Assembly: GCA_004431415.1 (NCBI GenBank)
Contig: QPMI01000395.1
Span: 620,001-684,000 of the forward strand
Length of the DNA stretch: 64,000 nt
Origin: Cyanophora paradoxa CCMP329
Taxonomy: Eukaryota; Plantae; Glaucophyta
Reading direction: 5' to 3'
In this document: one piece after another, positions 18,082 to 45,450 of the stretch
Position numbering within the stretch: the stretch's first letter is position 1
Layout of the letters: every line of letters starts with the position of its first letter
Notes under the pieces: generated by a model
Seen by the model: the letters and a program-made list of their open reading frames with translations, nothing else
The model's database searches: none
Told to the model about the DNA's origin: nothing
Program-made: the position numbers and the translations under genes

Positions 18082-18389
18082 ACACATATACAACGCCCGG
18101 CTTTTAGACCTCGGCTAATTTAAATTGATATCGTTAGTATATAACCTGTATTTATAATAGATCTAACGTGAATATGTGTGTGTTTTATCTGTTATATGTA
18201 TTTATTTTATCGTGAGTTATAGCTTCTTTTTAATAAAATATGTGAAATATGTATAGTTTATGTGAAGTTTAGCTATATTCTCGATGAGTAGACTTATATA
18301 TCTCGTGAGATTCATTATAGTTTAGGTGTGACTCAACTTAGTTTAATTATAACTTGCCTCAGTCTAAAAGCCGGGCGTTGTATATGTGT
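18082..18389. repeat. Terminal fold-back: 28-bp perfect inverted repeat (18082-18109 / 18362-18389) around an AT-rich core
   Basis: ACACATATACAACGCCCGGCTTTTAGAC ... GTCTAAAAGCCGGGCGTTGTATATGTGT; mirrored at 45143-45450. Confidence 0.92.
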
Positions 18390-18552
18390 GTTGTTCTGAA
18401 TTTTCAATATAAAAGCGACGATCATGCGTCGTTTCATCAAAAACAACTACCATGAGCTGCATGGAACGTTCTGTATGCGGCTCTCTATAAAACAAAGTAG
18501 ATCTATGATATATTATAATTGATTCTTTTGTATTTTAATTGGTCTTATTCAG

Positions 18553-18925
18553 TGTTACAGGTGTTACAGGTTTATCCCAAAGTCCGCCCTAGGAGTGGGG
18601 TCTTGGTTCCCGAGTTTGGGCAAGACCTGTAACACCTGTAACAACGTAAACAATTATCGTGTGCTGCATAAAACATTTCGCGCGCATCGAAAATATGTGA
18701 TAGTGAATAGTTTCGCACTGAAAACGATACGAAATTGATCGTTATAATACAAAAATAATTACTACTGATATTATTATGATATACTAAGACTGATATTTTG
18801 TTGTTTTAATAGGTTCTTACTGAATTAGGTCAGTGTTACAGGTGTTACAGGTTCATCCCAAACTTTGCCCTAGGAGGGGGTGGGGGATAGGAAACTTTGG
18901 GATAGACCTGTAACACCTGTAACAC
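18553..18925. repeat. Two type-B iteron hairpins (TGTTACAGG x2 ... CCTGTAACA x2) at 18553-18643 and 18833-18925
   Basis: 19-20-bp perfect arms around 53-nt spacers containing GCCCTAGGAG.GGGG; mirrored at ~44607-44979. Confidence 0.9.
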
Positions 18926-18984
18926 CTTACTGATTAGCACGTAAATGCATGAGTTTCGCATCGAGATCGTGCGGCTACACATAG

Positions 18985-19680
18985 AAACTACGCAATTTAC
19001 CGCAACTACTCAAAGAAACTACGCAATTTAATACCGGGAACTACTGAAAAGATACCAAAACTACGCAACTACGCAACTTTCAGAAAAAGTTTGAAACTCG
19101 GGGCGGGAAAAATTTAGAAAAGTGAAAAACTTGCGTAGTTGCGTAGTTTTGGTTTCGTTTGCGTAGTTTTGGTTTCGAATTGCGTAGTTTTTCAGGGGAA
19201 GTTGAGTAGTTTCAAGTAGTTTATATATTATAAAGTAGTTTCTTATTAATATCAATATGATTCTATGATATATACCATGATTTCTCTACTGAAAAGAGCG
19301 CCGGCATACTACAAGGGAAGCTACGCGATAGTTTCGCACTGAAACACGACCGTTTTATAGGCTACGCAATAGTCTCGCACCTAAATGCATGCGGACTCCC
19401 GGTAGACTACGCAATTTAACGTAACTACGCATGAAAACTACGCAATCTGATCGCTTTTAATACCGAAAACTACACATTTAATACCAAAACTACGCAACTA
19501 CGCAACTTTCTGAAAAAGTTTAGAAGTTGGCGGGGAAAAAAAATTAGAAAAGTGAAAAACTTGCGTAGTTGCGTAGTTTTGGTATTAATGGCGTAGTTTC
19601 CGGTATTAAGTTGCGTAGTTTAACATAGGTAGTTGAGTAGTTTAAAGTAGTTTTTATTAATTATAAAGTAGTTTATTATT
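18985..19680. repeat. Two type-C iteron hairpins (ACTACGCA repeats) at 19054-19153 and 19478-19588, with flanking iteron copies
   Basis: Arms ACCAAAACTACGCAACTACGCAA / TTGCGTAGTTGCGTAGTTTTGGT around 54-55-nt spacers; mirrored at ~43944-44478. Confidence 0.9.
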
Positions 19681-19864
19681 TATCTTATTGTTATCAGTCT
19701 GAGACTCTATGAAAATCGATTGACCTTAGTGTGAAACAGTGCGCCCCGCCCACTATGCAAGATACATGCCTTTCTTATGCATGATCTATGAAAAATAACA
19801 ATAAACCCAGTCGTCAGACAAGCTGCCTTGGCTGCGCCTCTCTCATTCTTCGAATTCGAATTCT

Positions 19865-20128
19865 TTACATAGGAGCACTCGCAGTTATCTCGCTCATTTT
19901 TACCACAGTCCCGCGATTAAAAGCTTGCTCTACAATCGCTTCCTTTGTGAGTGGAATTGGAATCCCAGCAGCAATACAGGATTGAACTTCTTTGGCTACA
20001 ATGTCATCAGTTGCCGACATTGCACGACTTTTCACTACATTCGTAATCCATTCAGCTGGGGAGAACGCAATATATTCCATTGCTGACTTTTCTGTATTCG
20101 ATAAAATCACTTCGTATATGTTCGACAT
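19865..20128 (-). CDS. Small protein resembling those found after C1q-type tail fibres in phages (possible fibre chaperone or partner), 87 aa
   Basis: Pattern YEVILSNTEKSAMEYIA...EWITNVVKSRA..A.DDIV..EV..C.A.G..IP..K.AIV.QAF..G.V; lies immediately downstream of the C1q gene. Recognised by eye. Confidence 0.55.
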   Translation of the reverse strand: MSNIYEVILSNTEKSAMEYIAFSPAEWITNVVKSRAMSATDDIVAKEVQSCIAAGIPIPLTKEAIVEQAFNRGTVVKMSEITASAPM

Positions 20129-20150
20129 TCTCTACTCTAAGGAAACAAAA

Positions 20151-21062
20151 TTAATCGATGGCGGTTAGCATGGCTATATAAAATCCACATCTGTCTCCCC
20201 ATACATTCTGAACCCACAGCTCTACATAATCCCCCGGAGAAAGTTCTGCTATTCCTCCTGTCTGCATACCTATCCAGGTCCCAGCAGGATTCGCATTGAA
20301 TCTAAATTGACTCACCGTAGAGCCATTTATTTTTATTTCAAGCAGTGATATGCCACTCGAAACATTCGCTGATAAAGAAGACCCCAAAAGAATGTATATT
20401 CCTTTTGTCTGACATGTGAAACGACCATCAGTAAACGTTGATGTCCCAAGCCTTGAAAAACCAGTAGTATAACTGTTGAATTTAATAAATGTGCTTCCTG
20501 ATGCAAGTGCTGCGGTTCCATATCTTCCCATCATTGGGTGACTATTCATTTTAACATTGCCACTGAATGTGCCAGTGGTTCCAGTAACTCCTCCATTTGC
20601 TGTAAGAAGCCCTGAGAAAGTCCCAGTGCTTCCATTTACTCCTCCACTTGCTGTGAGTAATCCAGTAAATGAGCCTGTCCCACTAACTGTCGCATTCCCA
20701 TTCACCCCCAAGCCAGTCCCGATCCATGCCCCGCCACTGTAAACTTGGAAAGCCGCCGAATTCCTATCAGCCGGATTAAAAGCCGTTTTGGAATCCTGTT
20801 GACCTTCATATAGATTTTCTTTGGTGACCAGCCCCGAAGAGATTGCGGGTCGATTCGATACGATCATTTGAGTAGCTTTAACGAGTCCATCAATCTTGTC
20901 AGCTCTGAGTTCTTTGACTCTGAGTATGCTTTGGTCATTAAAAGAATCGGTTTTCGCTGTCTCAGTCGAAGGGTGGCTCGGAGATAAATCATAGACTGTG
21001 TGTTGGACATTATGGACAGCACTTGCACTCAAAGAAAACACAGGCGTGAATACAGTTGACAT
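20151..21062 (-). CDS. Fibre-like protein with a C-terminal C1q/TNF-like head, 303 aa
   Basis: GTFSGLLTANGG shaft repeats, then DGRFTCQTKGIY...IKING...ELSPGDYVELWV, the typical gC1q pattern. Confidence 0.75.
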   Translation of the reverse strand: MSTVFTPVFSLSASAVHNVQHTVYDLSPSHPSTETAKTDSFNDQSILRVKELRADKIDGLVKATQMIVSNRPAISSGLVTKENLYEGQQDSKTAFNPADRNSAAFQVYSGGAWIGTGLGVNGNATVSGTGSFTGLLTASGGVNGSTGTFSGLLTANGGVTGTTGTFSGNVKMNSHPMMGRYGTAALASGSTFIKFNSYTTGFSRLGTSTFTDGRFTCQTKGIYILLGSSLSANVSSGISLLEIKINGSTVSQFRFNANPAGTWIGMQTGGIAELSPGDYVELWVQNVWGDRCGFYIAMLTAID

Positions 21063-21083: not shown

Positions 21084-22547
21084 TTAAGCGAGAATATTAT
21101 TGTTTTGGAGAGGTCCGACAGCAATCCAATGGAGTTTAAGGGTGCGATTTGCTGCTGTGACATTTGTGAAATTAGTCGATGCGAAAGCTGTGAATCTAAC
21201 GATCCATGTAAACTTAGTTTTTAGTCCTACTCTCTCATTATTAACATACTCAGGTCCGATATACACACAGTTGGTCATTTCCCAATTTACAGAGTTGTAG
21301 CTATTCTCGATAGAGGTAGTAATCACTGCATCACTATAAAATGGGGTAGAGAATACGACCGTTCCCGATAACTGAAAGGTCTCTCCTGCATTGTATATTC
21401 TATTTTCCAAAACTACATTCGCTGTCCCTTGTTGCACATATGCATTTGGATTCACATAATTACCGAAATTCGTGAGCAACTCTATGCTGTGATTGTGAGT
21501 AGGTGGCGAAGTAGGTGTGTTAATTAAATCGTCATAGTTCCCGCTTGTAGCCACAGCATGCAAGTTTGGTGTATTAACTAAATCTGTATAGCTCCCACTT
21601 GTAGCCACAGCATGCAAGGTCGGTGCAATAGGGGTGTTAGTTAAATCGTTGTAATCACCACTTGTGGCAACAGCATGCAAATTCGGCTTAGTAAATAACC
21701 TATCCCATGTCCCATTGAAAGGGAGTGTAGATTCTGATATAATTACACCTTGATCAATCCAACGAGGTATATAGCTTGTGAAATCGGGAGGATTTACAAG
21801 ATCATAGTAATTTCCTGTGTATGCTACACTACTCCAAGTCGGCTTCTGAATGATATCACTCCACTTCCCACTAAAACCCGCCGGCACATCTGTAAGCTCT
21901 TTATAGCTCACCTTTTGCTTCGGTATAGAGAGCTCGATGGGCGAGAATGCACCCGAAAGGCGATTTTCAGAGGTGAAATACATGAGACTTTGACTGTTAG
22001 GGAACTCATCCACGAGATTAAAGGTGAAATTCGTGGGCAATTCGAGTCGACTAATTGGGGTGTTGTCGCCTAATATAAATTCGGCGCCTGTATGCACGAC
22101 CGGATTTCTTTGGATATACATATTTGATGCACCTATTACAGGTGCTACTATGGGCACATCCGAATTAACGAGATTGCAAGTGATGGAGAAAATGGTTTTG
22201 GGGGCAAACAGATTGCAATCAAAGGTTATCGTGGCGGGATCAATAGTAGGATCGACATTTGAACAGATCTGAAACATCCACCCACCCACACAGTTGCAAT
22301 TTAGATTTCGAAAGGCTGTGCCTGCCATCGCATCCACATAGCCGATCCCATTTGCAATGTCATAGATGTGACCAAACTCGTAACCGAAAAGGTCATTCCA
22401 TAGGTTAGAAGCCATAGCTCCCATCACATAGCCTTTTAGATTAACAATTAGGTCATTGGATTCACTGGGTATATTGGCATGGGTTATATAAAATTGATTA
22501 TCCAATACAGCATTCTTTACTGTCGTTTCTACTATGGGTTCCGTCAT
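21084..22547 (-). CDS. Tail-fibre-like protein with LHAVATSGxYxDLxNxP repeats and a C-terminal H-type-lectin/gp53-like domain, 487 aa
   Basis: Three tandem LHAVATSG(D/S/N)YxDL.NTP repeats (~21516-21682) plus degenerate copies; C-terminus GTVVFSTPF...LHWIAVG. Confidence 0.7.
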   Translation of the reverse strand: MTEPIVETTVKNAVLDNQFYITHANIPSESNDLIVNLKGYVMGAMASNLWNDLFGYEFGHIYDIANGIGYVDAMAGTAFRNLNCNCVGGWMFQICSNVDPTIDPATITFDCNLFAPKTIFSITCNLVNSDVPIVAPVIGASNMYIQRNPVVHTGAEFILGDNTPISRLELPTNFTFNLVDEFPNSQSLMYFTSENRLSGAFSPIELSIPKQKVSYKELTDVPAGFSGKWSDIIQKPTWSSVAYTGNYYDLVNPPDFTSYIPRWIDQGVIISESTLPFNGTWDRLFTKPNLHAVATSGDYNDLTNTPIAPTLHAVATSGSYTDLVNTPNLHAVATSGNYDDLINTPTSPPTHNHSIELLTNFGNYVNPNAYVQQGTANVVLENRIYNAGETFQLSGTVVFSTPFYSDAVITTSIENSYNSVNWEMTNCVYIGPEYVNNERVGLKTKFTWIVRFTAFASTNFTNVTAANRTLKLHWIAVGPLQNNNILA

Positions 22548-22576: not shown

Positions 22577-25500
22577 TTAAGGTCGCATTGGGAGAAGCTC
22601 GTATGTTCTGCCCTCTCGTTGTGCAATTTCCGCCATAAAGTCTGCATTTTCATTCATTATTGATTCAGCCATTCGTTCTGCTCGTGATTTTTTGGGTGCT
22701 GCCCTACTTGCTGGTGGTTGATCAGTTCTCACAACACTAAGACCATGCCCCTCGGCTGACCTCACCTCTAACCCCACATCTCCTTCGGCTGTTTGGGTCA
22801 CATTAAGCTCTGGTGTTGAGTATTTATTACCTGCTCCTGCAATGGTTCTGTCTATGCAAGCACAACATAGAGCTCGGAATTTGTATGCAAGCACAAGTCC
22901 AAGAGCACCGAGAATCGGCAAGAGAATGAGAAGCACTAACGTTCCTGGATCCATTCCTGGCGATCCGACTGGATTTGTAGGATTTGAGGGATTATTAGGT
23001 GTCGTGTTCGGATCTGGATCAGTTGTAGGGGGATCTTTTGAATCGGGATCTGGCTTAGGTGTGTTTGGATTGGGATCGTTTGGTGGCGGTTCTGTCGACC
23101 CTGCTAATGATGTCGGCGCTGTGTATGCATTCGCAAACACGATGGGAGCCGTTGCTGGATTTCCTGTTGAAGACCCTGTAATTGCACCATAGGTATCTGA
23201 GAGATATTTATATAATTCCTTTGTCACAGGTGGATTGCTCACAGATCGGCACACCCAAATATTGCATGTAGTATCATAGACTGTGTCCCTGATAAATGGC
23301 GGTAGAGCTGTCCCACTAAATGACTCAAAGAGCCCATTTCTCGATAGCAACCTATGGGCTGCATCACAGTTCCCACCCTCGAAATATTTGGTAGCCGAAA
23401 TTGCACCTTGCACATAAATATTGCAAGTCGAGTGCATTCCGATGCTATTTAGGTTGGGAGTGTATCTATCATCGAGCCGGACAGTGCACACCCATGGGGA
23501 AGCGGTTTTAATATATTTCTTATCGCCCACTTCGATTACATCTGTATTTGGGTGGCTGTCAAGCTGAGTCCAAACAGCATCATATCTGAAAGTGTAATAA
23601 ACTAAGAGACCATCTGTGGACGATGTGAAAGCAAAGAAGGTCATAAAGTCCGTGGATCCAAAGAAGTCAGCATTGGTCGATGTAAGGGTGACTCTGGGAT
23701 AGCTCATGTTGACAGTCTCAGAAGGGTATGGAATATATGAGGTGTAATTGCGATTGAAAAGATAATAGTGAAATCCATCTGAGACATTCGAGTGAGTGGG
23801 CAAGGTGACTGATAAGGTCTTACTTCGATTCTCAAACGTGTTCTGTATGACAATATTGCAAGTATTAATATATCGAGAATCGAAAAAGTAATTATTCGTT
23901 ACTCGATTATCGATCAGAGTTGCATTGGTTCCATTAAATACGAAATTCTGCCCATTTATTCTCGTAGTATGGAGGTCGGTCACATCGAGAGGATACCTTA
24001 TTTTCAAGCGGTCTTCGGGGTCAAATCGCGGAATAGTTCCTGTTGCCTTCCAATTGATAGTAAAGGGAGGAGAAAGGGACACAGGTGGGATCGCTGAAAG
24101 ATTAAATTTCGCAAAATACAACCCAACAGGATATGCTGTAAGAGCATATGTCACTGTTGCATTTCCGACAAGTGTGAAGCCGGTGGTTGTTATGTTAGTT
24201 GCAACAAATGGGGAGTAGCCGGCTGGTGCATTGTTAATAGAGGTGGTCGACCCATTATTGATCACATACAAATTCGTGTCAGTTATTTCAATAGTAGGAG
24301 GGGAAACAAATGGTGTCTCAAATGTGAAATTAAAATTCGCTGGAACCGCTGCAAGGTATCTATATGTTGTTGCTGATATCTCGGATGCCTGGAATACTTT
24401 GCTTCCCCTCTGCACTACATTACTGGTGTCTTTCACATTGTGATAGGATATACTGGGAGTTGGGGAGAGCACCAACGAAATAGCATCTGGTAAATCAGAC
24501 TTTGTTATATACAGTTCTCTGAGAAACTCCTTTCTAAAAGGGGCGGTCAGTTCTCCAATAGTAGCCGATGATCCTGCGACCACAATATTACAGGTGTTTG
24601 CATTCAAAGAATAAACTGTGTTCCACCTTCAAGAATTCGCCCCAAGATCCAAATTCTGTGAGAAGGGCACGATATTGCTACCCTGTAAATCGCGGTAAAT
24701 CTTTACTCTGGGTTTGCTATCGAATTCAGGGGTGATATAATTGATGTTAAGAGTGAAACTAATAGTAGCTTCGGAACTCAATGAGTTGTTTCGGATGATA
24801 AGTAAATTGTATGTCTCGTTAATGACAAACGAAACCTGAAACCCTGTGGAGGTGACATTTTGGATAAACGCTTTATTAGATTCATTATTGTTAGTGATAG
24901 GATTATAATAAGTTGTGTGATCCACCAATGAAACAGTGGGTATATTCGTCTCGAAACCTGTGACACCCAACTGATCCCAAGTGAATGTATATGTAGGTTT
25001 GCCTACGTAAGCGACATAGACCCCATTTGCGAGCTGCTGAGGGTATCCCTCGACAGTGTAGGTCTCAGTTCGCGAAACTGAGCGGGAAAGATTGCTGTTA
25101 AAGTCGTTGTAGCTGATAAGAGCTCTCTCATCAGTGGGTAAATCACTGGGTCGGACTGAGTGATTGAAAGGCAAGATTATGTTACTTGTCTTTGAGGTCG
25201 TGCTATAAAGGTTGGTCGTGTGCAAGTCATCAAACCACCCATCATAGGCATACACATTGAGCCATTTCTTAACAGAATCAGTGTTAGATTGCCCGAGATT
25301 AAACTGATGATTGAGCAAAGGCACCAAATCGCGGGATAAATACATGATCGCATCAGTGATGGTCATTGCACCTGTTAAAACAGCGAGTCCTGCTGTGTTT
25401 GCTGCGGTAGCAATTGATAAACCCGAGATTTCGAGATCCTGGGCTACATCTCGCTCGTTTCTTGTGAATCGCTCACTATAAAACTCCTTTACAAGGTCGA

Positions 25501-25903
25501 CCCCCATGACCTCAATTAAATGTGGTCGAGTGAGTGTAATATTGCTTGTGATGCTCTGCGAATATTTAACAGGATCCCATTCGACGACAGCTGTCAGTGG
25601 GATGGGGCGGGCTTTATTGATTTCGTGCTGAAAGGTTCGCACTGTGGGGAAATTGCTGCCAAAGAATGCAACAGGCGAGCCCCCATGATAGATAACGAGG
25701 GCTGAGTTATCAGTGCCATAGGTAAAAGGGAGATTGCTGGTGATATCGATATATTGAAGGTTGCTCTGATTTAATAGAAAGTCTTTTACCACAAGGTTCG
25801 AAGATATGGTCACATTGGAAGCGGTAATGTTACTGCTGAGCTCGAAACCGTCATCCAAATACAAGGTTTCCCGAGTGATAAAGGGGAGATTCGTGATACT
25901 CAT
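22577..25903 (-). CDS. Large fibre-like protein (~1,108 codons) with lectin-like modules, a Pro-rich stalk and a C-terminal TM helix; split by one in-frame TGA at 24629-24631
   Basis: ORFs 24629-25903 and 22577-24607 are in the same frame and the junction reads LDLGANS*RWNTVYSLNANTCNI. Two F..PF/PT...N(V/I)T.TGF modules; TM segment LVLLILLPILGALGLVLAY followed by KFRALCCAC. Confidence 0.7.
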
Positions 25904-25921: not shown

Positions 25922-26892
25922 TTAACCCGATAGCACCTCTAATATAAAGCTGTGATTAACGCCATTAAAGTTGACTACATTATTGTAGGCGTCGAGCCAT
26001 TTAATTGTGAGGGTGTCTATGTCATAAGCCTGATCGTGGGAATTAAAGAACTCCACAGTATCGATTCTGCGGAATGTCAGGTAGTAAACAAACGATCCCA
26101 AGGGGCTGGTTAGTGGGATCTTAGCGAGGTTTGCATTTCCGCCCTCATCTGTCTTTGCTGCTACCATATACCTGTCGTAAAAGGGAGTAAACTCTTTAAT
26201 TTGTAGGTAAACATAGGGGGTCGGATTTAGATTAATCGCATTTGGGAAGGTCACTGCATGTTCGAGAGGGAATGGAAGCACAGATATTCCGGCGGGGTAT
26301 TTTGTTTTGCCCTCATAGGCTTGTAGAAATGAGTATTTTGGATTGCTGGGTGTGAGGGGTAAATAGTCTACCGTGAGATGCTCTGAACCCTCACCAACTG
26401 GAATTGTTTGATACATATCCCTTTGATCATTCCATGGAACCTTGCAAAGTCGTCATGTGCACAGCTCAGTGCGAGGGGAATGCTCGAATAAAACGTAATT
26501 TTCATAGTCGCTGGATTATAGAGCCACTTGTAGTAGACTGTGACGCTTTCGCTTGTGAGAGGGTTTACATCGACAAAGCTGCCCGAGTAGCCTAAGTTCT
26601 TATTACCATATCCCAAATCGCGGGGTGTAGTTCCCAATATCAGGGAAAGGGAAAAGGTGATGCTGTTCGTCATTCCCTGTATGGTCACGCCTCTGGAATT
26701 ATCGGTGACAGCATAAATCGTGTTTGGGAGCTCGGCGCTCGCAATGCGCACCCCTTTTACGTTCAGAAGTCGCTGAGAAAGCTTTACTGTATATTCTCCC
26801 GGGTGCCCTGCACTGCGCTCAATAGAATCGATATTAACATTGACCCTCGTAAACTTGCCATTATAGAAATCGTTAACTGGCTTCCGAATCAT
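25922..26892 (-). CDS. Minor capsid (penton-like) protein 1, split by a 1-nt frameshift near 26420
   Basis: N-part NIDSIERS...EYTVKLSQRLLNVKGVRIASAELPNTIY and C-part LAKIPL...IDTLTIKWLDAYNNVVNFNGVNHSFILEV are the two conserved ends of PLV/NCLDV pentons. 971 nt + 1 = 324 codons. Confidence 0.8.
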
Positions 26893-26919: not shown

Positions 26920-28206
26920 ATGCGCGAGTATCTCAGCATCAGTAGCCGTGATCGATCAGAGGGCTCGGCTCATTCCTATAAGGTGACCCTTCCAAAGCAA
27001 TACCACAATGTGAAGAGCATCGCTGTGCGACAGATCGAATTTTCCAACACGATTCCGACGGTTCCAAGCCCTCAATTCTATACTGAAATCGGGGAGACGA
27101 AAGCCGATGATGCTAATACAATTTTCATATCATTTCCTTACCGATTTTCGAGTGGACAGCTCAATGGTGCCACTCAGGAAATCAGAGATTCACAGGCAAC
27201 TGCAATATATGACGCTTACAAAGCCATAGATGCTGGCGACCAAGGCAACTATATACCGCCTGATTACCTAAACACTTTCAGAAGATATACCCGATACAGA
27301 GACGTAGCAATTACGATCCCTCCGGGCACATACTCGACTGGAACCGACCTTGCCACTGCAATCGATAACATCTTAACGAAAAATGGAACTGGCAACTACA
27401 TCAAGGATATGATCGACACAAAAATTAATCCAAGCTACGCATCGACAGGGGGAACCTTTTACCCGGTGGTGCGATGTCGTTTTGAGAGCACATTAAATGC
27501 CATATGCTTTTATTCGAGTGATTATGTCTACATAGCTTTCACGAAATATGGTCCGAGTAATGCCACTGGGTCTACTGCGAATGAAAGAAAGGTGCTCGCC
27601 TATCGCACGATGACTCTTCTCGGGTTTACATCGATCAGAGAGAATATAATGATAGATCAATACAACGGATCGGGCTACACAGCCTTCGCTGGGAGCGGTG
27701 TCGTTTACTCAGCTGGTGATGCATTCCGCAATTATAATTCGACGGCTCTGGTCTTAGGCATAGCCGGAGGCACTGCCCCTGATTATACACCGGATAATGC
27801 AATAGTTTTAAAGATCACAGAGCCGGACTGCTCGCTTTTTACGACATGCACCGAGGCTACTAATGGATTCCTCGCTAAGATCCCGATTTCGAAAGGCACA
27901 GCCTATGCGGATGCTGAGCTAATTAATTATGGGGCGGATGCTTTCACGAAATACTTTAACACCCGCCTTTCGTTTGATAGTTTAACCGTTCAAATTCTCA
28001 CGGAGAGCGGTTATAGGTATTTCCTCGGAAGCTGTGAGCACACATTCATTTTGGAAATTACTATGGGAGTGGATGAGCCCGACGACGATTTACAGCGCAT
28101 TGTTAATAAGGGATTCGCGAAAATGCTATATGAGGACTACCCGCATTGCGGCAATTTAACGAATGCGTTGAGCGGGGTGGCTGTAAAAAATAATCCGTTC
28201 TTCTAA
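26920..28206 (+). CDS. Minor capsid (penton-like) protein 2 with a large central insertion, 428 aa
   Basis: ATG at 26920; LSISSRDR...YKVTLPKQYHNVKSIAVRQIEFSNT and FLAKIPI...FDSLTVQILTESG...EHTFILEI. Confidence 0.8.
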   Translation: MREYLSISSRDRSEGSAHSYKVTLPKQYHNVKSIAVRQIEFSNTIPTVPSPQFYTEIGETKADDANTIFISFPYRFSSGQLNGATQEIRDSQATAIYDAYKAIDAGDQGNYIPPDYLNTFRRYTRYRDVAITIPPGTYSTGTDLATAIDNILTKNGTGNYIKDMIDTKINPSYASTGGTFYPVVRCRFESTLNAICFYSSDYVYIAFTKYGPSNATGSTANERKVLAYRTMTLLGFTSIRENIMIDQYNGSGYTAFAGSGVVYSAGDAFRNYNSTALVLGIAGGTAPDYTPDNAIVLKITEPDCSLFTTCTEATNGFLAKIPISKGTAYADAELINYGADAFTKYFNTRLSFDSLTVQILTESGYRYFLGSCEHTFILEITMGVDEPDDDLQRIVNKGFAKMLYEDYPHCGNLTNALSGVAVKNNPFF

Positions 28207-33189: not shown

Positions 33190-33193
33190 ACCA

Positions 33194-36991: not shown

Positions 36992-37013
36992 AAATGTTCC
37001 CTTAGAGTAAAAG

Positions 37014-40000
37014 ATGCCCCGCCAAACTAATCGCCTGATCAAAGAGAAAAAAGACGAAATATTAGGCTTGTTAGGTAGTCTTTTAGTCACTGGGGAGATC
37101 ACCGAAGCCGAATACGATCGGAGGGCGGCGATCTTAGATCGAAAACCCCGCTTAGCTAACCTTGCGAATATTGCCGACGAGCTCTACAATCGCCTGGAAA
37201 ATGTGGAGCGCTTCTATACCGAAGGGAGGCGCTTAGCCGTCATAGAACCCGATGAGGAAGACGGTTTCGCAATGAATAAAGCATACGCCTGGTATAGCTA
37301 TAAGGCGGATGAACAGATAATCTTAGATCCGGTGGAATTTCTCACTACCATCGCTGCAAATCTGCCTGGGCGGCTGAAAGAGAGGCTGGACGAACTGAAA
37401 GCTATTAAGGTGCGCCTTACTTTCATCTGCCGATACGTAAAAGTGAGTGATCCTAACGTTTTTATCACCAAACACATTTACAGCGATTATTTCGTAATCA
37501 CAAGGTCGCGCAATATTCTCACTGAGTTAGTGGGTGTAGCTCAGCAAATGAATGAACAGATGATACAGGTCGACAGCTACCGGCTCAGTAAATTAGATAA
37601 GCTACATGTCGCCGTTTTGTCATATGCGCCGATGGGCGGTTGCTACATTGAGACCCCCGAATGGATTGGATTAAAGCGAGCCACAGTAAATATTAAGAAT
37701 ATCGATGGTCACGACTGTTTTAATTACGCTATCCTCGCATGGCTGCACAGAAACGACATAAACAGACACAAACGTAATGATCCGTTCCAATATAGGCGGT
37801 GGATGACTGAACTCGACTTCTCAGGCATTAACTTCCCGGTGGCATGCGATGCTGCATTAATAGATCGGTTCGAGGCAAATAATCCCGAGCTGTCAATTAA
37901 TATATATGGCGCCGACAATGCGACCCAAACCTTTTATCCACTGCACATGTCAAGTAATCCGCGTCGTAAATCGAAGGTAAACCTGCTGCTGATCGAGGAC
38001 GCAAACGGACAAGGTCACTATATAACGATAATGTCACTGAGCCGCCTATTAAAGACCACCTTTGATAAAGCAAACGACGGGCGCATTTTCTACTGCGAAA
38101 CCTGTTTGTCCCGGTTTAGATCACAGGAGAAACTCGATAGCCACACCGACTCTAATCGCTGTATCGATTGGAGAATGAGTAAAGGTAAATGCCCCGAACC
38201 CGGAAGCTTTATTACTTTCGGACTGCAACACCTAAGGAAAATGGTGTGGCTGCCCACTGTCTGCTACTGCAAAGTAGAGATGGAGTCGGTGCCGGTTCCT
38301 AATGAACCAAATCGAACCAAGCGAGAGGTAAAGTCGGTGGCACTTAATGTTGTTATGGGCTCTCATGTTGAAAATCACGAATTCGAGGGCGTGGATCCGC
38401 TGGGACAGATGTTTACCACGTTAGGGGATCTGTGTCGCGAGATGCTTAATACCCTATTTACCAACACGCCTATGATCCCGCTCACAGAGGCGCAAAAGCA
38501 AGCCTATAAGCTCACCAAGCACTGCTATATATGCAATCAGCGGTTTACCCACGAAAACTTCCCTGTGCGCGATCACTGTCACCAAAGCGGCGATTATATA
38601 GGGAAAGCTTGCCGAAAGTGCAATTTACATAGGAGGATCTCAAAGCAAACGAAAGTAGCCGTGGTTATTGATCGGATGGACGAGTGCGGGCATGCTATAT
38701 TCAGGAAAATCGCACAGCAAGACGACAAGCTGCGGGTCGAGATCCTAAGTAAGAATTTCGACGAGTATCTGTCTTTACAGTGGGGACTTTACAAATTCAT
38801 AGATGCATCGAATTTCATGGATTTTCAGGCGTCCGATGTTAATGATCTCATGGTAAAATTCGGTAAATTCAGCATGCTCGCCCATGAGCAATACGGACTG
38901 GATCCCACGCATTATGTGAGCGCACCGGGACTATCGTGGGACGCGATGTTAAAGCATACGAGGGTCGCGATAGAACAGATCAGCGATGCGGATCAATACG
39001 AATTTATTGAGCGGGCGATTAGGGGCGGCTTTGCGACCATGCCCACACGATATGCCGAGGCAAATAGCGAGAATAAACATATAGTGCTATTGGACGCTAA
39101 TAACCTGTATGGGTTTGCGCTCAGTCAGCCTTTACCGGTCGGGGACTATCGCTGGGACGACACAAGCACAGCGTTTACCGAGGTCGTAGGGCGGAGTGCA
39201 TTTATAGAGGTCGACCTTGCGTATCCGGACTATTTAAAGGGCGACCATCGCGATTTCCCGCTAATCGTGAGTAAAGAGGTAATTACTGTGGACATGCTCG
39301 GCAAGTATCAGCGTGGGCTTTTGGAGATTAGCGGCGAGAAGCTCAGTAAAGATCCGAAGCTGATCGCCTCGTTTACCCCGAAATATAATTACGTGGTGTC
39401 TCAGCCGATGCTGCTCTATATGGTAAAAAAGGGGATCGTAGTTACTAAGATTCACCGCGTGCTCTCGTTTGCAACCGCTGCATTTATGAAGCCCTACATA
39501 GATCTGAACACGAAACTGCGAAAGGAAGCCCGGAATAAATTCGAGAGCGACTTCTTTAAATTAATGAACAATGCTATTTACGGTAAATGCCTGGAATCGT
39601 GTCGAGGGCGCTCAGTGGTAAAGATCGCGAATAGCACGAAGCTGTTTAAGAAATACGCCGCGAGCCCACTGGTAAAAGCGACGAATGTATTAAACGAGAC
39701 TGCGGTCGCCTTTGAAATGTATAGTAAACACGTAAAACTCGATAAACCGGTTGCGATTGGCGCTTATGTGCTGGATGCCGCGAAGCTACATAATTATAGC
39801 TTCTTTTACGACGTGATCCGACCGACTTTCTCGCAAGCTCAGCTGCTGTTCCACGATACCGATTCGTTCTGTCTGTATATAGAGAGCGCGGATCTGGAAG
39901 CGGGCATGCGAGCGATCAGCCCTTATTTAGATTGCCCTTATAGTCCCGAGAACCGGATGGTTCCCGGTAAATATAAAAATGAGATGCCGGACGTCAAGAT

Positions 40001-40277
40001 AGTGGAGTATGTGGGACTGCGACCGAAGCTATATGCTTTCCGCACCGAGAGCTACGACAAGGTAAAAATGAGCGGGACAGCCTCGAAAGAGGTGCATTTC
40101 GACGACTTTAAGCGCTGCCTATTTGACGGGATCACAAAAACAGTAACAGTAGTAAACAAGCAACGGCGATGCCACCACTTATATGATTTGGAGAGCAAGC
40201 GGATAGCGCTGACCCAATTCGATGGCAAGCGCTGCATATCAGGCGACGGCATACATAGCCTTCCATTCGGCTGTTAG
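37014..40277 (+). CDS. polB: Protein-primed family B DNA polymerase (Polinton type) with vOTU-like, C2H2 and endonuclease-VII-like Zn segments, 1,087 aa
   Basis: LDANNLYG (motif A), KLMNNAIYGK (B), FHDTDSF (C), GLRPKLYA, LDPTHYVSAPGLSWDAMLK. N-terminal part has NIKNIDGHDCFNYAIL...GHY, CETC...H...C and CYIC...RDHCH..G.Y.G.AC..CN. Confidence 0.96.
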   Translation: MPRQTNRLIKEKKDEILGLLGSLLVTGEITEAEYDRRAAILDRKPRLANLANIADELYNRLENVERFYTEGRRLAVIEPDEEDGFAMNKAYAWYSYKADEQIILDPVEFLTTIAANLPGRLKERLDELKAIKVRLTFICRYVKVSDPNVFITKHIYSDYFVITRSRNILTELVGVAQQMNEQMIQVDSYRLSKLDKLHVAVLSYAPMGGCYIETPEWIGLKRATVNIKNIDGHDCFNYAILAWLHRNDINRHKRNDPFQYRRWMTELDFSGINFPVACDAALIDRFEANNPELSINIYGADNATQTFYPLHMSSNPRRKSKVNLLLIEDANGQGHYITIMSLSRLLKTTFDKANDGRIFYCETCLSRFRSQEKLDSHTDSNRCIDWRMSKGKCPEPGSFITFGLQHLRKMVWLPTVCYCKVEMESVPVPNEPNRTKREVKSVALNVVMGSHVENHEFEGVDPLGQMFTTLGDLCREMLNTLFTNTPMIPLTEAQKQAYKLTKHCYICNQRFTHENFPVRDHCHQSGDYIGKACRKCNLHRRISKQTKVAVVIDRMDECGHAIFRKIAQQDDKLRVEILSKNFDEYLSLQWGLYKFIDASNFMDFQASDVNDLMVKFGKFSMLAHEQYGLDPTHYVSAPGLSWDAMLKHTRVAIEQISDADQYEFIERAIRGGFATMPTRYAEANSENKHIVLLDANNLYGFALSQPLPVGDYRWDDTSTAFTEVVGRSAFIEVDLAYPDYLKGDHRDFPLIVSKEVITVDMLGKYQRGLLEISGEKLSKDPKLIASFTPKYNYVVSQPMLLYMVKKGIVVTKIHRVLSFATAAFMKPYIDLNTKLRKEARNKFESDFFKLMNNAIYGKCLESCRGRSVVKIANSTKLFKKYAASPLVKATNVLNETAVAFEMYSKHVKLDKPVAIGAYVLDAAKLHNYSFFYDVIRPTFSQAQLLFHDTDSFCLYIESADLEAGMRAISPYLDCPYSPENRMVPGKYKNEMPDVKIVEYVGLRPKLYAFRTESYDKVKMSGTASKEVHFDDFKRCLFDGITKTVTVVNKQRRCHHLYDLESKRIALTQFDGKRCISGDGIHSLPFGC

Positions 40278-40608: not shown

Positions 40609-40673
40609 AAAATGATTTAAGGAGAACGCGCTACATTTAGGCAACAGGAAAATATTTTCTCAGGTTAAAGTAA
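40609..40673 (+). promoter_or_regulatory. Second copy of the bipartite promoter-like cassette, with AAAATTGA just upstream (40584-40591)
   Basis: AAAATGATTTAAGG...AAAATATTTTCTCAGGTTAAAGTAA before ATG 40683. Confidence 0.65.
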
Positions 40674-40682
40674 AAGGCGACA

Positions 40683-41371
40683 ATGGACAACGCAATTGAA
40701 GGCGACGAACGTCAGCGCCACCGATCGATAATGAGCATTCTAAAAGAAGGCAACCCTGTATTCGCTACCTTTCTTGGTCTGAATGATGAACAAATGAATA
40801 CGATTATCCGTCTTGTTAGTCTGATGGATATTCAAAACATACTTTTCTCCGTGATCGGCTATTTTCCTGCAAACCCCAATAGAATGTATGGGAAAATGGT
40901 CGACAATCGCTTTTCTGGTTTACGTATCCGGAAATACCGCACGAGGAGAGAAGGGAGTTATTCGAAGAAGACCCCAACGTAATTGCTGCCGATTTTGTGG
41001 AAGTGATCGACCCTGTTAAAGTATTTGAAGGATCTGGATTAGATGCGAATTCAGGCGATCTTCTATTCGCACTGATTCATGCTCAGGCTCAGAAGTCAGA
41101 AAAGAGGCGTGAGCGTGAACGTCAGGAAGCGATGCGGCGCGTTTATTTAGATGTGCCGCGGAGAGACCTTTCACAGTCCTATCCTAAATTCGAAGCGCAT
41201 GGATTAACTATTAAATCTCGGGCGACCTTGCGCAAATTCTTAAAGGAAAACGGGCATCGTGGGACAAGCATAATGGGTGGTTTACATACGATAGAAACAG
41301 CATCGTTGTTAAGATCTTCCGCCCTGATTTACCGTAAACAAACAATACCTTTTCTTGTCGCCTGCATGTAA
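40683..41371 (+). CDS. Hypothetical protein, probably one ~229-aa gene split by a 1-nt frameshift near 40883
   Basis: The frame of ORF 40997-41371 is open back to 40883 (NVWENGRQSLFWFTYPEIPHEERRELFEED...). One extra A at AATAGAATG fuses it to ORF 40683. Confidence 0.55.
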
Positions 41372-41400
41372 AATGTTACATTGATCTTTTTTATTGTCTG

Positions 41401-42843
41401 ATGACAAGGATGTCAAGACCGCCCATAGTAAGACGATCGCAAGATTTAGAGGGGAGCACATTGCCGATCCCCGTGCCGAAAGAGAATAAAGAGAGCCGCA
41501 TAGTAAAGCGGTCTGATTTAAAGGCTTTGGTGCCCCGCGACGTGCCCGTAGCCCTTGCTGTCCCGGAGGAATCGAAAATTGCCCGGAAGTTTTACAGTCC
41601 GCAAACCGGTTTCAAAGGGATCACTAAGCTACGGCAAGAGCTGCCCGACGAGAATTATAAGAAATTGCAAGAGTGGTATAGCCGGCAAGAGGTCGTTCAG
41701 ATTAATGCGCCGCACCTATCCCGCAAACGAGACCCTGCTATACCGATCCGACAGCCTCTCGATACCTACGTAATTGATCTGCTATTCTTTCCCGCTTACT
41801 CGAAGTATAATGATAATTACAGTGCTTTTCTCACGGCTATGGAGAACACATTACGGGTCGGGTTCATTATCCCGATGCGGGATAAGTCCGCGGCGTCGAC
41901 CTTAGCCGCCTTTATACAGCTGCAAAATAAGGCGCCGAGACCAATTTTCAAAGTGCAAAGCGATGCGGGAAGCGAATTCCGCAATGATATTATGCGCAAA
42001 TATTTCGAGAATCAGTTTATAGAGCATCAGATTGCGGACACAGCCGACCATCGCGCGCAAGGGCGCATAGAGGCGTTTAACAAGCAAATGCGGCGGCTAA
42101 TCACGAGCTACTGCATCGCTAATAATACGGCTCGATTTATAGATGTCCTGCCCGAATTAGAATATAACTATAATAATACGGTGCACTCTGCGACCGGCTA
42201 TATGCCTGCGGAGACCAACGAGAGTCACTATAAGCTCATAGTTCAAAAAGAAGATGCGAAATTCAAGAAATCGATAGCTTATTTGGATCAGATTCAGCCG
42301 GGCATGTCAGTAAGGCTACGGATCGAGAAGACGCCGTTCGCTAAGGGCGGTAACAATTGGAGCCGAATCGTATATACTGTCGCCGCGCGCGAGGGCTATA
42401 AGTTTATGCTAACTGATCCGGACGGCAATCGCGTAGAGGGTCGCTTTGCCTTCCACGAGCTATTCCCTGTCCAAGCTGTGGATTACCTTATGGCGCCCAC
42501 AGTAGACGCATTAGAAGCGGCAAAGGACGAGGCGCGCGTCGATGCGCAATTGCGTAGAGAGGGCATAGAAGCCGCCGCGGCTGTGCCACAAGGCACTCTA
42601 TTAGAGGATCGCGTGCAAAAAGAGAAACGCGTAAATAAAGAATTACAGCGGCTAGTAACAGCCGCCGAGCCTAAGCTATCCGGCGGCGTGAATAGCCAAC
42701 GATGGTATAAGTCGTTCTCTAATCAAACTGAGAGCTACAAGGCGCCGGAAACCAAAGCTACATTAAGAAGTAGTAGAAAAGTAGCAACGGTAGCGCCGGT
42801 AGCTAATGGCGATCGAAAAGCGACTTTGAGACCACGCAAGTAG
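41401..42843 (+). CDS. int: Retroviral-like (rve) DDE integrase, Polinton type, 480 aa
   Basis: YVIDL (D), QSDAGSEF (D), GRIEAFNK (E), YNNTVHSATGYMP and GMSVRL.IEK.PFAKG..NWS; no chromodomain visible. Confidence 0.95.
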   Translation: MTRMSRPPIVRRSQDLEGSTLPIPVPKENKESRIVKRSDLKALVPRDVPVALAVPEESKIARKFYSPQTGFKGITKLRQELPDENYKKLQEWYSRQEVVQINAPHLSRKRDPAIPIRQPLDTYVIDLLFFPAYSKYNDNYSAFLTAMENTLRVGFIIPMRDKSAASTLAAFIQLQNKAPRPIFKVQSDAGSEFRNDIMRKYFENQFIEHQIADTADHRAQGRIEAFNKQMRRLITSYCIANNTARFIDVLPELEYNYNNTVHSATGYMPAETNESHYKLIVQKEDAKFKKSIAYLDQIQPGMSVRLRIEKTPFAKGGNNWSRIVYTVAAREGYKFMLTDPDGNRVEGRFAFHELFPVQAVDYLMAPTVDALEAAKDEARVDAQLRREGIEAAAAVPQGTLLEDRVQKEKRVNKELQRLVTAAEPKLSGGVNSQRWYKSFSNQTESYKAPETKATLRSSRKVATVAPVANGDRKATLRPRK

Positions 42844-43762
42844 TAGGCGCCGCGGTGCTTTCGTAGCCGCCAAATCGCGCCCTTTGCGAATCAGACCGCG
42901 CCGCTTTGTAGTAGCGTAGAACTACTCTATACGCGCGCGGATGCGAAGTATGACTAGTGGAGCCTCACGGGAACGCGCGCCGGCGCGCACGACGTAGGGG
43001 ACACCTCGGTTTTCGGGCACCTGTGCCTATGGAGAATTCGCGCTTCGCGCCATGGTTGAGTAAGCTAGTCAAACTAGCACCAACATGCCCGGAAGCAAGT
43101 TGTGAGCACGTAGCAATTGAGAGCGCGCCGAGATCGGCTTGCTGTCCAAAGTTATGCCCGGAAAACGAAAGGGGGGGTCGCCGCCGAGTCGCGATCGCGG
43201 TGTTATGGTAAATATTTGCCGGCGACTCGGGACTCGGGACTCGGGACTCGGGACTCCGGGAAGTTGGCAAGTCGGTCAGTCACTGGTCAGTCATAGTCAG
43301 TCAAGTTTTGGTGTCGGCTTGTCGTTAAATCGACAAGTAATGGCGGCTTGTCGAAAAAACGTCAAGTCTGTTGCGGCTTGTCGTAAAAACGTCAAGCCGA
43401 CGAAAGATATACCCCAATCGGTTACGCGAGCCTCTACCCCAATCGGTTACGCCCGCATAACCGGTTACGCGAGCCTCTACCCCAATCGGTTACGGTCACA
43501 TCCGCGATTGGTCGAACATCGAAAAACACATAAAAAACTACTTTGTGGCATGCTATATGTTTTCGGGATCGCCGTGATGTGATGACCCCGAATATGTCGG
43601 TGACGCCGGTGTATATATGTATATGTCGTGATATGCGAAAAAAACAAAAAAAAACAAAAAATGCAAAGTTGTGCGGGATCACTCACACAGAGGTTCGGAC
43701 ATATATACGAAATATATGCATGGCTAAATCGTTATTGTTTTCATAGAACTCGCATGTAGTTT

Positions 43763-45450
43763 GCATGTATCTTGCATAGTGGGCGGGGCGCACTGTTTCA
43801 CACTAAGGTCAATCGATTTTCATAGAGTCTCAGACTGATAACAATAAGATAAATAATAAACTACTTTATAATTAATAAAAACTACTTTAAACTACTCAAC
43901 TACCTATGTTAAACTACGCAACTTAATACCGGAAACTACGCCATTAATACCAAAACTACGCAACTACGCAAGTTTTTCACTTTTCTAATTTTTTTCCCCC
44001 GCCAACTTCTAAACTTTTTCAGAAAGTTGCGTAGTTGCGTAGTTTTGGTATTAAATGTGTAGTTTTCGGTATTAAAAGCGATCAGATTGCGTAGTTTTCA
44101 TGCGTAGTTACGTTAAATTGCGTAGTCTACCGGGAGTCCGCATGCATTTAGGTGCGAGACTATTGCGTAGCCTATAAAACGGTCGTGTTTCAGTGCGAAA
44201 CTATCGCGTAGCTTCCCTTGTAGTATGCCGGCGCTCTTTTCAGTAGAGAAATCATGGTATATATCATAGAATCATATTGATATTAATAAGAAACTACTTT
44301 ATAATATATAAACTACTTGAAACTACTCAACTTCCCCTGAAAAACTACGCAATTCGAAACCAAAACTACGCAAACGAAACCAAAACTACGCAACTACGCA
44401 AGTTTTTCACTTTTCTAAATTTTTCCCGCCCCGAGTTTCAAACTTTTTCTGAAAGTTGCGTAGTTGCGTAGTTTTGGTATCTTTTCAGTAGTTCCCGGTA
44501 TTAAATTGCGTAGTTTCTTTGAGTAGTTGCGGTAAATTGCGTAGTTTCTATGTGTAGCCGCACGATCTCGATGCGAAACTCATGCATTTACGTGCTAATC
44601 AGTAAGGTGTTACAGGTGTTACAGGTCTATCCCAAAGTTTCCTATCCCCCACCCCCTCCTAGGGCAAAGTTTGGGATGAACCTGTAACACCTGTAACAAT
44701 GACCTAATTCAGTAAGAACCTATTAAAACAACAAAATATCAGTCTTAGTATATCATAATAATATCAGTAGTAATTATTTTTGTATTATAACGATCAATTT
44801 CGTATCGTTTTCAGTGCGAAACTATTCACTATCACATATTTTCGATGCGCGCGAAATGTTTTATGCAGCACACGATAATTGTTTACGTTGTTACAGGTGT
44901 TACAGGTCTTGCCCAAACTCGGGAACCAAGACCCCACTCCTAGGGCGGACTTTGGGATAAACCTGTAACACCTGTAACACTGAATAAGACCAATTAAAAT
45001 ACAAAAGAATCAATTATAATATATCATAGATCTACTTTGTTTTATAGAGAGCCGAATACAGAACGTTCCATGCAGCTCATGGTAGTTGTTTTTGATGAAA
45101 CGACGCATGATCGTCGATTATGCATTGAAAATTCAGAACAACACACATATACAACGCCCGGCTTTTAGACTGAGGCAAGTTATAATTAAACTAAGTTGAG
45201 TCACACCTAAACTATAATGAATCTCACGAGATATATAAGTCTACTCATCGAGAATATAGCTAAACTTCACATAAACTATACATATTTCACATATTTTATT
45301 AAAAAGAAGCTATAACTCACGATAAAATAAATACATATAACAGATAAAACACACACATATTCACGTTAGATCTATTATAAATACAGGTTATATACTAACG
45401 ATATCAATTTAAATTAGCCGAGGTCTAAAAGCCGGGCGTTGTATATGTGT
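43763..45450 (-). repeat. Right terminal inverted repeat (1,688 bp)
   Basis: Reverse complement of 18082-19769. Confidence 0.97.

What the first reader, a model, noticed from the sequence alone, without database searches (positions are those of the whole stretch)
18082..45450. Complete, recently integrated Polinton-like virus with an unusual gene set
Seen: intact ends, nearly identical 1,688-bp TIRs, a 6-bp TSD, and genes for pPolB, rve integrase, A32 ATPase, MCP, two pentons, a full prim-pol/D5 primase-helicase and a four-gene fibre cassette. Known: canonical Polintons carry pPolB, rve, ATPase, capsids and an adenain-like protease, and are usually smaller. Here no adenain/Ulp1-type protease ORF is recognisable, and both protein-priming and primase systems are present. 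Inference: this may be an undescribed lineage of integrating protist DNA virus that can still be mobilised.
Basis: partly seen in the sequence, partly recalled or inferred. Interest (0 to 1): 0.85.

Follow-up and report, generated by a model that had tools for sequence, protein, structure and literature searches.

The report
Proofreading-dead polymerase in algal endogenous virus
A complete 27-kb Polinton-like virus, likely one of about 20 related copies in the genome of what is likely the alga Cyanophora paradoxa, has a DNA polymerase that has lost its proofreading motifs and likely relies on the neighbouring primase-helicase, while the features first flagged as odd (no maturation protease, two replication genes) are already known in this virus group.

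Summary
The element is real: 27,369 bp, 1,688-bp TIRs (7 mismatches), a 6-bp TSD that fits an empty-site paralogue, and intact pPolB, rve, A32 ATPase and primase-helicase motifs. Read depth suggests roughly 20 related copies. The claimed novelty mostly falls. The closest MCP (34-43%) is a Cyanophora paradoxa MCP already tabulated, unnamed, by Bellas 2023. Lacking adenain is normal for PLVs. pPolB plus primase-helicase is in print. What I found no report of: this pPolB has lost Exo I and II and about 100 residues up to Exo III, which 30 of 30 and 31 of 31 relatives keep. The lesion is in family contigs, and the gene shows purifying selection (29 of 32 codon differences synonymous). It sits beside a primase-helicase followed by an iteron-like palindrome repeated in both TIRs; this scan noted such blocks before on other DNA of this genome. 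Best reading: one helicase-dependent replisome, parallel to mavirus. New variant of a known kind; interest 0.5.

The parts
18076..18081 (+). left target-site duplication GCGGCG
   Evidence: 6-bp length fixed by empty-site paralogue
18082..19769 (+). left TIR, 1,688 bp; its first 28 nt recur inverted at TIR nt 281-308
18553..18924 (.). two type-A mirror blocks (TGTTACAGG x2 ... CCTGTAACA x2) in the left TIR; no cognate gene in this element; some family contigs skip one or both
   Evidence: joints 18471-18937 and 18690-18939
18985..19680 (.). two type-B iteron-like mirror blocks (ACTACGCA x2, A-rich core, TGCGTAGT x2) in the left TIR; putative origins; some family contigs skip the first
   Evidence: joint 18960-19422
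19865..20128 (-). 87-aa ORF, no family hit; last gene of the leftward cassette
20151..21062 (-). 303-aa likely fibre protein, Gly/Thr repeats and a weak C1q-like C-terminus; at low depth in the family
   Evidence: E 0.021; depth bin 20171-20804
21084..22547 (-). 487-aa likely fibre protein with phage tail-fibre-type repeats
   Evidence: phrog_17509 E 1e-16; 54-nt tandem repeat
22577..25903 (-). long fibre/adhesin-like gene, 424 + 683 open codons separated by one in-frame TGA (24629-24631) inside a motif that recurs earlier in the protein; weak H-type lectin; hydrophobic segment near the C-terminus
25922..26892 (-). probable minor capsid protein (penton) 2; frameshifted in this assembly, 324 codons open when read with X at the four read-reported sites
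26920..28206 (+). probable minor capsid protein (penton) 1, 428 aa
   Evidence: clusters with DUF5901 13% and V18-19 11%; weak
28240..29687 (+). [quoted passage not shown]
29815..30762 (+). homing endonuclease, 315 aa; depth about twice host level, so in only a few copies
   Evidence: phrog_559 E 8e-69; table 8 (78.5 vs 39.9)
30824..31588 (+). A32-like packaging ATPase; C-terminus likely cut short by an assembly slip near 31574
31757..32428 (+). 223-aa ORF, no family hit; basic termini, possibly a core protein (inference)
33598..36012 (+). prim-pol (AEP)-superfamily 3 helicase, 804 aa, motifs intact; depth about 40% of the pPolB level
   Evidence: depth
36053..36300 (.). type-B iteron-like mirror block directly after the primase-helicase stop; 86% identical over 250 nt to TIR block 1; putative origin
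37014..40277 (+). pPolB, 1,087 aa: TP-like domain with shortened linking region, vOTU with Cys235/His335, Endo VII-like insert, Exo I (YCKVE) and Exo II motifs lost, about 100 aa missing before Exo III (junction 38822/38823), polymerase motifs A-C intact
40665..41371 (+). variable insert with small ORFs, skipped in many family copies
   Evidence: depth 172 vs about 960; joints 40678-41303, 40685-41326
41401..42843 (+). rve-type DDE integrase, 480 aa, D-D-E motifs present
43763..45450 (-). right TIR with the same A and B blocks
45451..45456 (+). right target-site duplication GCGGCG

Best explanation
This is a complete, young copy of a multi-copy endogenous Polinton-like virus, likely of the glaucophyte Cyanophora paradoxa, whose protein-primed DNA polymerase has lost its exonuclease motifs and likely works with the adjacent primase-helicase as one helicase-dependent replication machine rather than as a second, independent system. 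Shown: ends, TSD, gene set, exonuclease loss in this copy and in the majority contigs, intact polymerase, vOTU, helicase and integrase motifs, and the position of the mirror repeat blocks. Inferred: (1) the rve integrase inserts the linear genome, giving the 6-bp TSD; (2) the helicase C-terminus binds the ACTACGCA blocks, as SaPI Reps bind iterons, and opens the DNA after its own gene and inside both TIRs; (3) the exonuclease-less pPolB, primed by its own terminal-protein domain and released by vOTU, elongates behind the helicase, as proposed for mavirus; (4) genomes are packaged by the A32 ATPase into MCP/penton/fibre capsids with no encoded adenain, as in most PLVs.
For: Exo I D-x-E is present in 30 of 30 relatives that span it, Exo II Y-D in 31 of 31, and the F-x-D-S to Exo III span is 104-125 aa in those 31; the window has K-V-E, no Y-D and a span of 12 (33 relatives with a piece of 450 aa or more, out of 105 loci; L004, L038 and L042 do not cover Exo I; several rows are near-duplicates). 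High-depth contigs cross the deletion junction without gaps (X2 record 13, 38635-39593, depth 1167 vs host 65) and the listed change in the Exo I Lys codon is synonymous. 29 of 32 changed codons among the 34 listed pPolB differences are synonymous. Long terminal branch, 2.47 vs median 0.72 (quick tree). No D5-type hit in 105 loci bearing related pPolBs, 34 of them 9 kb or longer. Krupovic 2024 states that exonuclease loss accompanies helicase gain in mavirus and Tlr1-like PLVs. The 16-mer ACTACGCAACTACGCA occurs 10 times in 64 kb, 0 in 100 shuffles, only in the TIRs and right after the primase-helicase; SaPI origins lie immediately downstream of rep with opposed iterons around an AT-rich core. 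Frameshift sites: 9 of 11 listed one-base insertions fall in homopolymer runs of 2 or more, and at 28800 and 26418 all laid depth in 3 of 3 DNA runs carries the extra base.
Against: This primase-helicase has only about 40% of the pPolB depth (357-526 vs 712-1015 in X1), so most copies lack it at 90% identity or more. They would need another helicase in that slot or supply in trans; I could not see what they carry. The exonuclease-helicase link is a published hypothesis, not an experiment. Many control loci are partial, and one (L024) has an unassigned 433-aa P-loop ORF. Type-A blocks have no matching gene here. The AlphaFold models are weak (MCP homologue pLDDT 37.7; pPolB 54.7, exonuclease region under 50). 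Depth ratios of contigs are only a rough guide to copy number. The fibre TGA is unresolved. Host identity is inferred from the best MCP hit and from earlier scan notes.
Confidence: 0.55

Rival explanations
1. Replicase turnover caught midway: the primase-helicase with its own origin is a semi-autonomous cassette that invaded some copies and can replicate the genome alone; pPolB and rve form an older, separate module.
For: The cassette is in a minority of copies. Loose ends at 36994 show other sequence before pPolB in other copies. The internal block and the right-TIR blocks bracket the pPolB-rve segment as inverted repeats (I3-I5), the arrangement Barth 2026 describes. Halocafeteria dual-replicase elements are read as transient states. 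TIR variants gain or lose whole blocks (table 5).
Against: It does not explain why the pPolB lost exactly its exonuclease motifs while staying under purifying selection, or why B blocks matching this helicase's downstream block sit in the TIRs at high depth.
Confidence: 0.25
2. Converted polymerase: the pPolB no longer self-primes; the AEP primase primes at the iteron blocks inside the TIRs and the exonuclease-less pPolB only elongates.
For: The predicted linking-Ser column (loop between helix 2 and strand 4 of the TP fold) is Ser in 16 of 19 anchored relatives but Asp here, the preceding helix is about 9 residues shorter, and no Gly or Pro lies within 10 residues (19 of 33 relatives could be anchored). 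Origin-like blocks lie in both TIRs.
Against: Ser188 and Tyr189 sit one position later; 3 of 19 relatives also lack Ser there; the TP fold, vOTU dyad and a reiterated ACAC terminus are kept; most copies lack this primase.
Confidence: 0.15
3. This copy is a defective relic: the MCP, penton and fibre breaks are real and it moves only by help from sister copies.
For: Real breaks in a single copy could be hidden, because these contigs drop rare variants (header). The in-frame TGA is not a homopolymer slip and was not among the listed differences. TIRs differ at 7 sites.
Against: Breaks cluster in homopolymer runs; Bellas 2023 shows such breaks in protist EVEs are often assembly artefacts; differences from the family are mostly synonymous.
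Confidence: 0.2

Closest known systems
Cyanophora paradoxa endogenous PLVs of Bellas et al. 2023 (PMC10120064; Table S2 tig00020904 MCP; Table S4 clusters labelled 'new', 272 and 94 hits)
   Same: MCP 43% identical over the N-part and 34% over the C-part to the tabulated tig00020904 MCP, above the paper's 25% clustering threshold; NCLDV-like capsid; multi-copy; frameshifts of likely assembly origin.
   Different: The main-text parts and tables I saw give no gene-content description or name for these clusters; nothing on exonuclease loss or origin-like blocks.
Mavirus-type replication module (pPolB with remnant exonuclease + separate SF3 helicase + rve; PMC11161782)
   Same: Exonuclease-deficient pPolB with TP and vOTU domains, an SF3 helicase gene, rve integrase, 6-bp TSD.
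   Different: The polymerase is of the adintovirus/bidnavirus-like class with an Endo VII-like insert (mavirus ranks 34th in the fold search), keeps much of the exonuclease scaffold, and the helicase is fused to a prim-pol. No virophage MCP or protease.
Multi-replicase polisuviruses (Barth, Ha, Aylward 2026, 10.64898/2026.10.13.758929; Halocafeteria elements, 10.64898/2026.07.28.741278)
   Same: pPolB + DDE integrase together with an AEP-SF3 gene, internal repeats bracketing a replication module, nearby homing endonuclease; one example is a C. paradoxa EVE.
   Different: Those papers read the pair as redundancy or turnover; 'exonuclease' does not occur in the Barth main text. Their figures and supplements were not visible, so this very element may be among them.
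Canonical Maverick-Polintons / adintoviruses (Polintoviricetes)
   Same: pPolB (29-36% best-segment identity to IMG/VR relatives, one 41%) with vOTU, rve, A32 ATPase, TIRs, 6-bp TSD.
   Different: No adenain; unrelated MCP; exonuclease motifs lost; extra primase-helicase.
SaPI PriRep + ori module (PMC9371898)
   Same: Fused primase-helicase followed immediately by opposed short repeats around an A/T-rich core.
   Different: Bacterial satellite; here the block is also copied into both TIRs of a linear eukaryotic virus; binding is untested.

Membership tests
Polinton-like viruses (broad sense) | double-jelly-roll MCP | tested here: met
   Atlas 0.97 to Capsid_NCLDV clusters; homologue P0001 scored HHpred 98.5% to an iridovirus MCP in Bellas Table S2; my own fold was too poor to add much
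Polinton-like viruses (broad sense) | minor capsid protein (penton) | tested here: inconclusive
   Atlas 0.97-0.98 but recognition under threshold; DUF5901 E 0.015; custom HMM E 0.4
Polinton-like viruses (broad sense) | A32-like packaging ATPase | tested here: met
   Pox_A32 E 4e-11, above cut-off
Polinton-like viruses (broad sense) | 14-40 kb, TIRs, integrase and replicase | tested here: met
Polintoviricetes (canonical Polinton) | pPolB with TP-vOTU and rve integrase | tested here: met
Polintoviricetes (canonical Polinton) | adenain/Ulp1 maturation protease | tested here: not met
   HMM from 5 locus proteases: best E 0.26 over 465 six-frame pieces; leave-one-out 5 of 5 recovered, held-out L002 E 8e-37; no Pfam peptidase hit in 24 ORFs
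Polintoviricetes (canonical Polinton) | Mavpol-type MCP | tested here: inconclusive
   no Mavpol profile on hand; no tblastn hit of the MCP pieces to loci L001-L008; Bellas puts C. paradoxa MCPs in unnamed clusters
Polintoviricetes (canonical Polinton) | intact 3'-5' exonuclease in pPolB | tested here: not met
Virophaviricetes (virophages) | virophage-type MCP and cysteine protease | tested here: not met
   no Pfam virophage capsid hit; Atlas points to NCLDV-type capsid; protease absent
Mriyavirus / NCLDV-like PLVs (Zora, Zephyr, Alpensee) | HUH endonuclease, VLTF2/3 | tested here: not met
   no such Pfam or PHROG hit in 24 and 23 ORFs
Mriyavirus / NCLDV-like PLVs (Zora, Zephyr, Alpensee) | Mriya48 gene; placement by MCP profile and ATPase tree | not testable with these tools
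Mavirus-like replication module (works like) | exonuclease-deficient pPolB plus SF3 helicase | tested here: met
   functional coupling itself not tested
SaPI-type iteron origin (works like) | sequence-specific binding of the repeats by the helicase | not testable with these tools
   position and architecture fit; binding needs an assay

The most novel reading that the evidence does not exclude
The family has rewired a protein-primed polymerase into the elongating subunit of a primase-initiated replisome: the AEP-SF3 enzyme loads and primes at iteron origins built into both TIRs, and an exonuclease-less pPolB with a degenerate priming loop copies behind it. This would be a living intermediate in the switch from pPolB to primase-helicase replication in eukaryotic DNA viruses, and an exonuclease loss independent of mavirus and the Tlr1-like enzymes.
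Probability: 0.17. Interest if true: 0.8.

Novelty: new variant of a known kind. Interest (0 to 1): 0.5.

Why it matters
Krupovic et al. 2024 proposed that pPolBs lose their exonuclease as they gain a helicase, on the basis of two heavily derived end states. This element appears to show the step in between: the exonuclease scaffold is still alignable, its catalytic motifs are gone, the gene is under purifying selection, and a helicase with a candidate origin sits next door. That makes the proposal directly testable with two soluble enzymes and a 90-bp DNA block, in a host that is likely a laboratory alga. It also gives a gene map for a glaucophyte capsid lineage that has been counted but not named.

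Tried and rejected
No whole genome is held for this window, so sister copies, other TSDs and the content of the helicase slot could not be read. The MCP C-part word search found nothing. ATPase, P0001, primase-helicase and integrase pattern scans of viral contigs found no relative; the MCP alignment scan of metagenomes found none; the iteron palindrome pattern had 0 matches in viral contigs; PDB sequence search with pPolB gave 0 hits. No RNA holder was listed; two runs guessed to be RNA showed next to no cover of the element, which is no evidence on expression. The fold of the MCP homologue was low-confidence (pLDDT 37.7); its Foldseek hits include NCLDV capsids but also unrelated proteins, so I do not rely on it. 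The pPolB tree is the quick tree, the careful search did not finish, and the position of the long branch is unsure; 28 rows were used (pieces of 840 aa or more, L030 dropped as a duplicate, last 950 aa kept). L066 seemed to share the exonuclease deletion but is a frameshifted fragment with intact Exo I/II, so it was rejected as a parallel. Programmed frameshifting of the MCP and penton was rejected because family contigs are in frame. Programmed read-through of the fibre TGA could not be decided. No tRNA in the window. Earlier-findings look-ups by sequence, by relatives, near this place and by exonuclease words were empty. Literature searches; none surfaced an exonuclease-dead pPolB of this class or a named glaucophyte PLV group. 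Preprint figures and supplements were not seen.


Full report
Observation. The element spans 18082-45450 (27,369 bp). Its TIRs are 1,688 bp with 7 mismatches, four of them clustered at TIR nt 328-334. It sits in a (GCG)n run of a host repeat; a second copy of that repeat in the window (about 60590-61240, minus strand) has six GCG units where the filled site has eight, which fixes the duplication at 6 bp if the paralogue keeps the ancestral length. GC is 44% against 58% and 72% in the flanks. Catalytic motifs of the ATPase, primase, helicase, polymerase palm and integrase are present.

Breaks and copy number. The MCP and penton 2 are frameshifted, and the long fibre gene holds one in-frame TGA within a motif that recurs earlier in the same protein. 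Twenty listed runs, all of one organism, hold 67-70% of the sampled words. In the three DNA runs laid on the left part, all laid depth at 28800 and 26418 carries one more base; 9 of 11 listed insertion places lie in homopolymer runs; read with X at those places, the MCP is open for 482 codons and penton 2 for 324. This pattern fits assembly slips, as Bellas 2023 reports for protist EVEs, but these contigs drop rare variants, so real lesions in this one copy are not excluded. The TGA was not among the listed differences and stays unresolved. Core contigs have depth 941-960 against 40 for the unique flank in X1, 1,257-1,315 against 65 in X2 and 56 against about 3 in X20, i.e. roughly 17-24-fold; the tool warns that depth is not a copy number, so this is rough. 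The endonuclease is at about twice host depth, the primase-helicase at about 40% of the pPolB depth, and 40665-41300 is skipped in many copies. No listed contig bridged a host-virus junction.

Lineage. A search of 1.84 billion representatives with the MCP N-part gave two hits, 43% and 37% identical. The best is the Cyanophora paradoxa tig00020904 protein, 34% identical over the C-part. The same protein is row 106 of Bellas 2023 Table S2 (HHpred 98.5% to an iridovirus MCP), and Table S4 counts 366 MCPs in that genome in two clusters labelled 'new' with no group name (21 and 29 by my column count). The Atlas places the MCP with Capsid_NCLDV clusters. The ATPase had one hit, 84% identical, on an unnamed contig, and the primase-helicase had its best hit at 35%, followed by metagenomic and Tetrabaena proteins. 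No environmental relative of the capsid module was found. The host is therefore likely C. paradoxa, and the lineage is catalogued but, in what I read, unnamed; the 2026 PLV framework does not mention it in its main text.

Protease. An HMM from five adenain-like ORFs of related loci (labelled by their motifs from recall) gave a best E of 0.26 on 465 six-frame pieces, while recovering 5 of 5 left-out members and a held-out sixth at E 8e-37. The absence is real but ordinary: Gosseviruses are the only major PLV group with a core protease. The pPolB does carry a vOTU protease domain with Cys235 and His335, of the kind proposed to release the terminal protein.

Two replicases. pPolB with a D5 primase-helicase is reported in Halocafeteria virophages, and Barth et al. 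2026 describe multi-replicase genomes with internal repeats, including EVE_QPMI01_83 from C. paradoxa. The combination is not new.

What is new here. Aligned with 33 relatives drawn from 105 loci, the window pPolB has K-V-E where 30 of 30 covering rows have the Exo I D-x-E, lacks the Exo II Y-D kept in 31 of 31, and has 12 residues where those 31 have 104-125 before Exo III. High-depth contigs cross the deletion without gaps, the listed change in the Exo I Lys codon is synonymous, and 29 of 32 changed codons among the 34 listed pPolB differences are synonymous (166 further rows were not shown). So the family maintains an exonuclease-less polymerase. None of the 105 loci had a D5-type helicase, though only 34 are 9 kb or longer and one has an unassigned P-loop ORF. 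Krupovic 2024 notes that exonuclease loss goes with helicase gain in mavirus and Tlr1-like PLVs. This polymerase is closest in fold to adintovirus and bidnavirus enzymes, with mavirus at rank 34 (model pLDDT 54.7), so the loss is likely independent. The terminal-protein linking region is shortened and has Asp where 16 of 19 anchored relatives have Ser, with Ser one place later; this is suggestive only.

Origin-like blocks. The word ACTACGCA occurs 40 times in the window, only in the TIRs (two mirror blocks each) and in one block starting about 40 nt after the primase-helicase stop. A second block type, TGTTACAGG, occurs twice per TIR and has no partner gene here. Family contigs skip whole blocks (table 5). 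The layout matches SaPI origins. I noted this before looking up earlier findings; the scan had recorded similar blocks on other pieces of this genome, which is not independent proof. Barth 2024 proposed PLV inverted repeats as origins for the primase-helicase.

Mechanism. Most likely (0.55): rve integrates the linear genome; the helicase loads at the B blocks; the exonuclease-less pPolB, self-primed and released by vOTU, elongates with the helicase's help; the A32 ATPase packages the DNA without an encoded adenain. The main difficulty is that most copies lack this particular helicase; they must carry another one or be helped in trans, which I could not check. Rivals: replicase turnover (0.25), a polymerase converted to primase priming (0.15), and, on a separate axis, a defective copy (0.2). 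Dependence on a giant virus cannot be judged from these data.

Papers seen. PMC10120064: parts 1-3 of 7, passages, and rows of supplement Tables S1, S2, S4. 10.64898/2026.06.19.733378: abstract, whole Results section, passages. 10.64898/2026.10.13.758929: introduction, section 10 part 1, section 13, passages. PMC11161782: sections 5, 6, 10, passages. PMC12220804: passages and a supplement search. Passages only: PMC8502044, 10.64898/2026.07.28.741278, PMC12721341, PMC11296320, PMC9371898. Figures and preprint supplements were not seen and may show this element.

Verdict. Interest 0.5.

Noticed in passing
window 18082-18389 (and 45143-45450): The terminal 28 nt recur as a perfect inverted copy at TIR nt 281-308, so each end is a 308-bp miniature inverted-repeat unit; four of the seven TIR mismatches lie just past it.
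   Followed up: partly
window 28213, 31739, 33167, 40656: TTTCTC(A/G)(G/C) lies 18-27 nt before four start codons (4 of 11 occurrences in the core, 0.32 expected); AAAATT(T)GA lies 54-59 nt before three (3 of 5); TTRRAGTAR 12-18 nt before four (4 of 6). Candidate promoter motifs; patterns were picked by eye, so the expectation is optimistic.
   Followed up: partly
window 31757-32428 (+): The 223-aa ORF ends in M-F-G-G followed by R-R-R-F, resembling the adenovirus protease cleavage consensus (recalled, no call), although no adenain is encoded.
   Followed up: no
window 29815-30762 (+): Homing endonuclease between MCP and ATPase at only about twice host depth: likely a recent invader of a few family copies.
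   Followed up: partly
window 24629-24631 (-): In-frame TGA inside a repeated fibre motif, followed by 307 open codons before the next Met; mutation, assembly error or read-through not resolved.
   Followed up: partly
window 17926-18081 + 45451-45990 and about 60590-61240 (-): The virus sits in a host repeat of about 700 bp that has a second, empty copy 15 kb away.
   Followed up: partly
window about 4600-9000 (-): Intron-rich host gene with a dynamin-like GTPase P-loop (Dynamin_N E 4e-4 at 7761-8147).
   Followed up: no
window 1690-2345: GC-rich array of about 20-nt units in the left flank.
   Followed up: no
window 43224-43500: Short tandem arrays (7, 30 and 25 nt) just inside the right TIR; family contigs show length variants there.
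   Followed up: no
L007 2740-4248 (+): An adenain-like protease fused in frame to an rve integrase in an IMG/VR contig.
   Followed up: no
L024 14385-15683 (-): 433-aa P-loop ORF beside an exonuclease-intact pPolB; possible stand-alone helicase, family unclear.
   Followed up: partly
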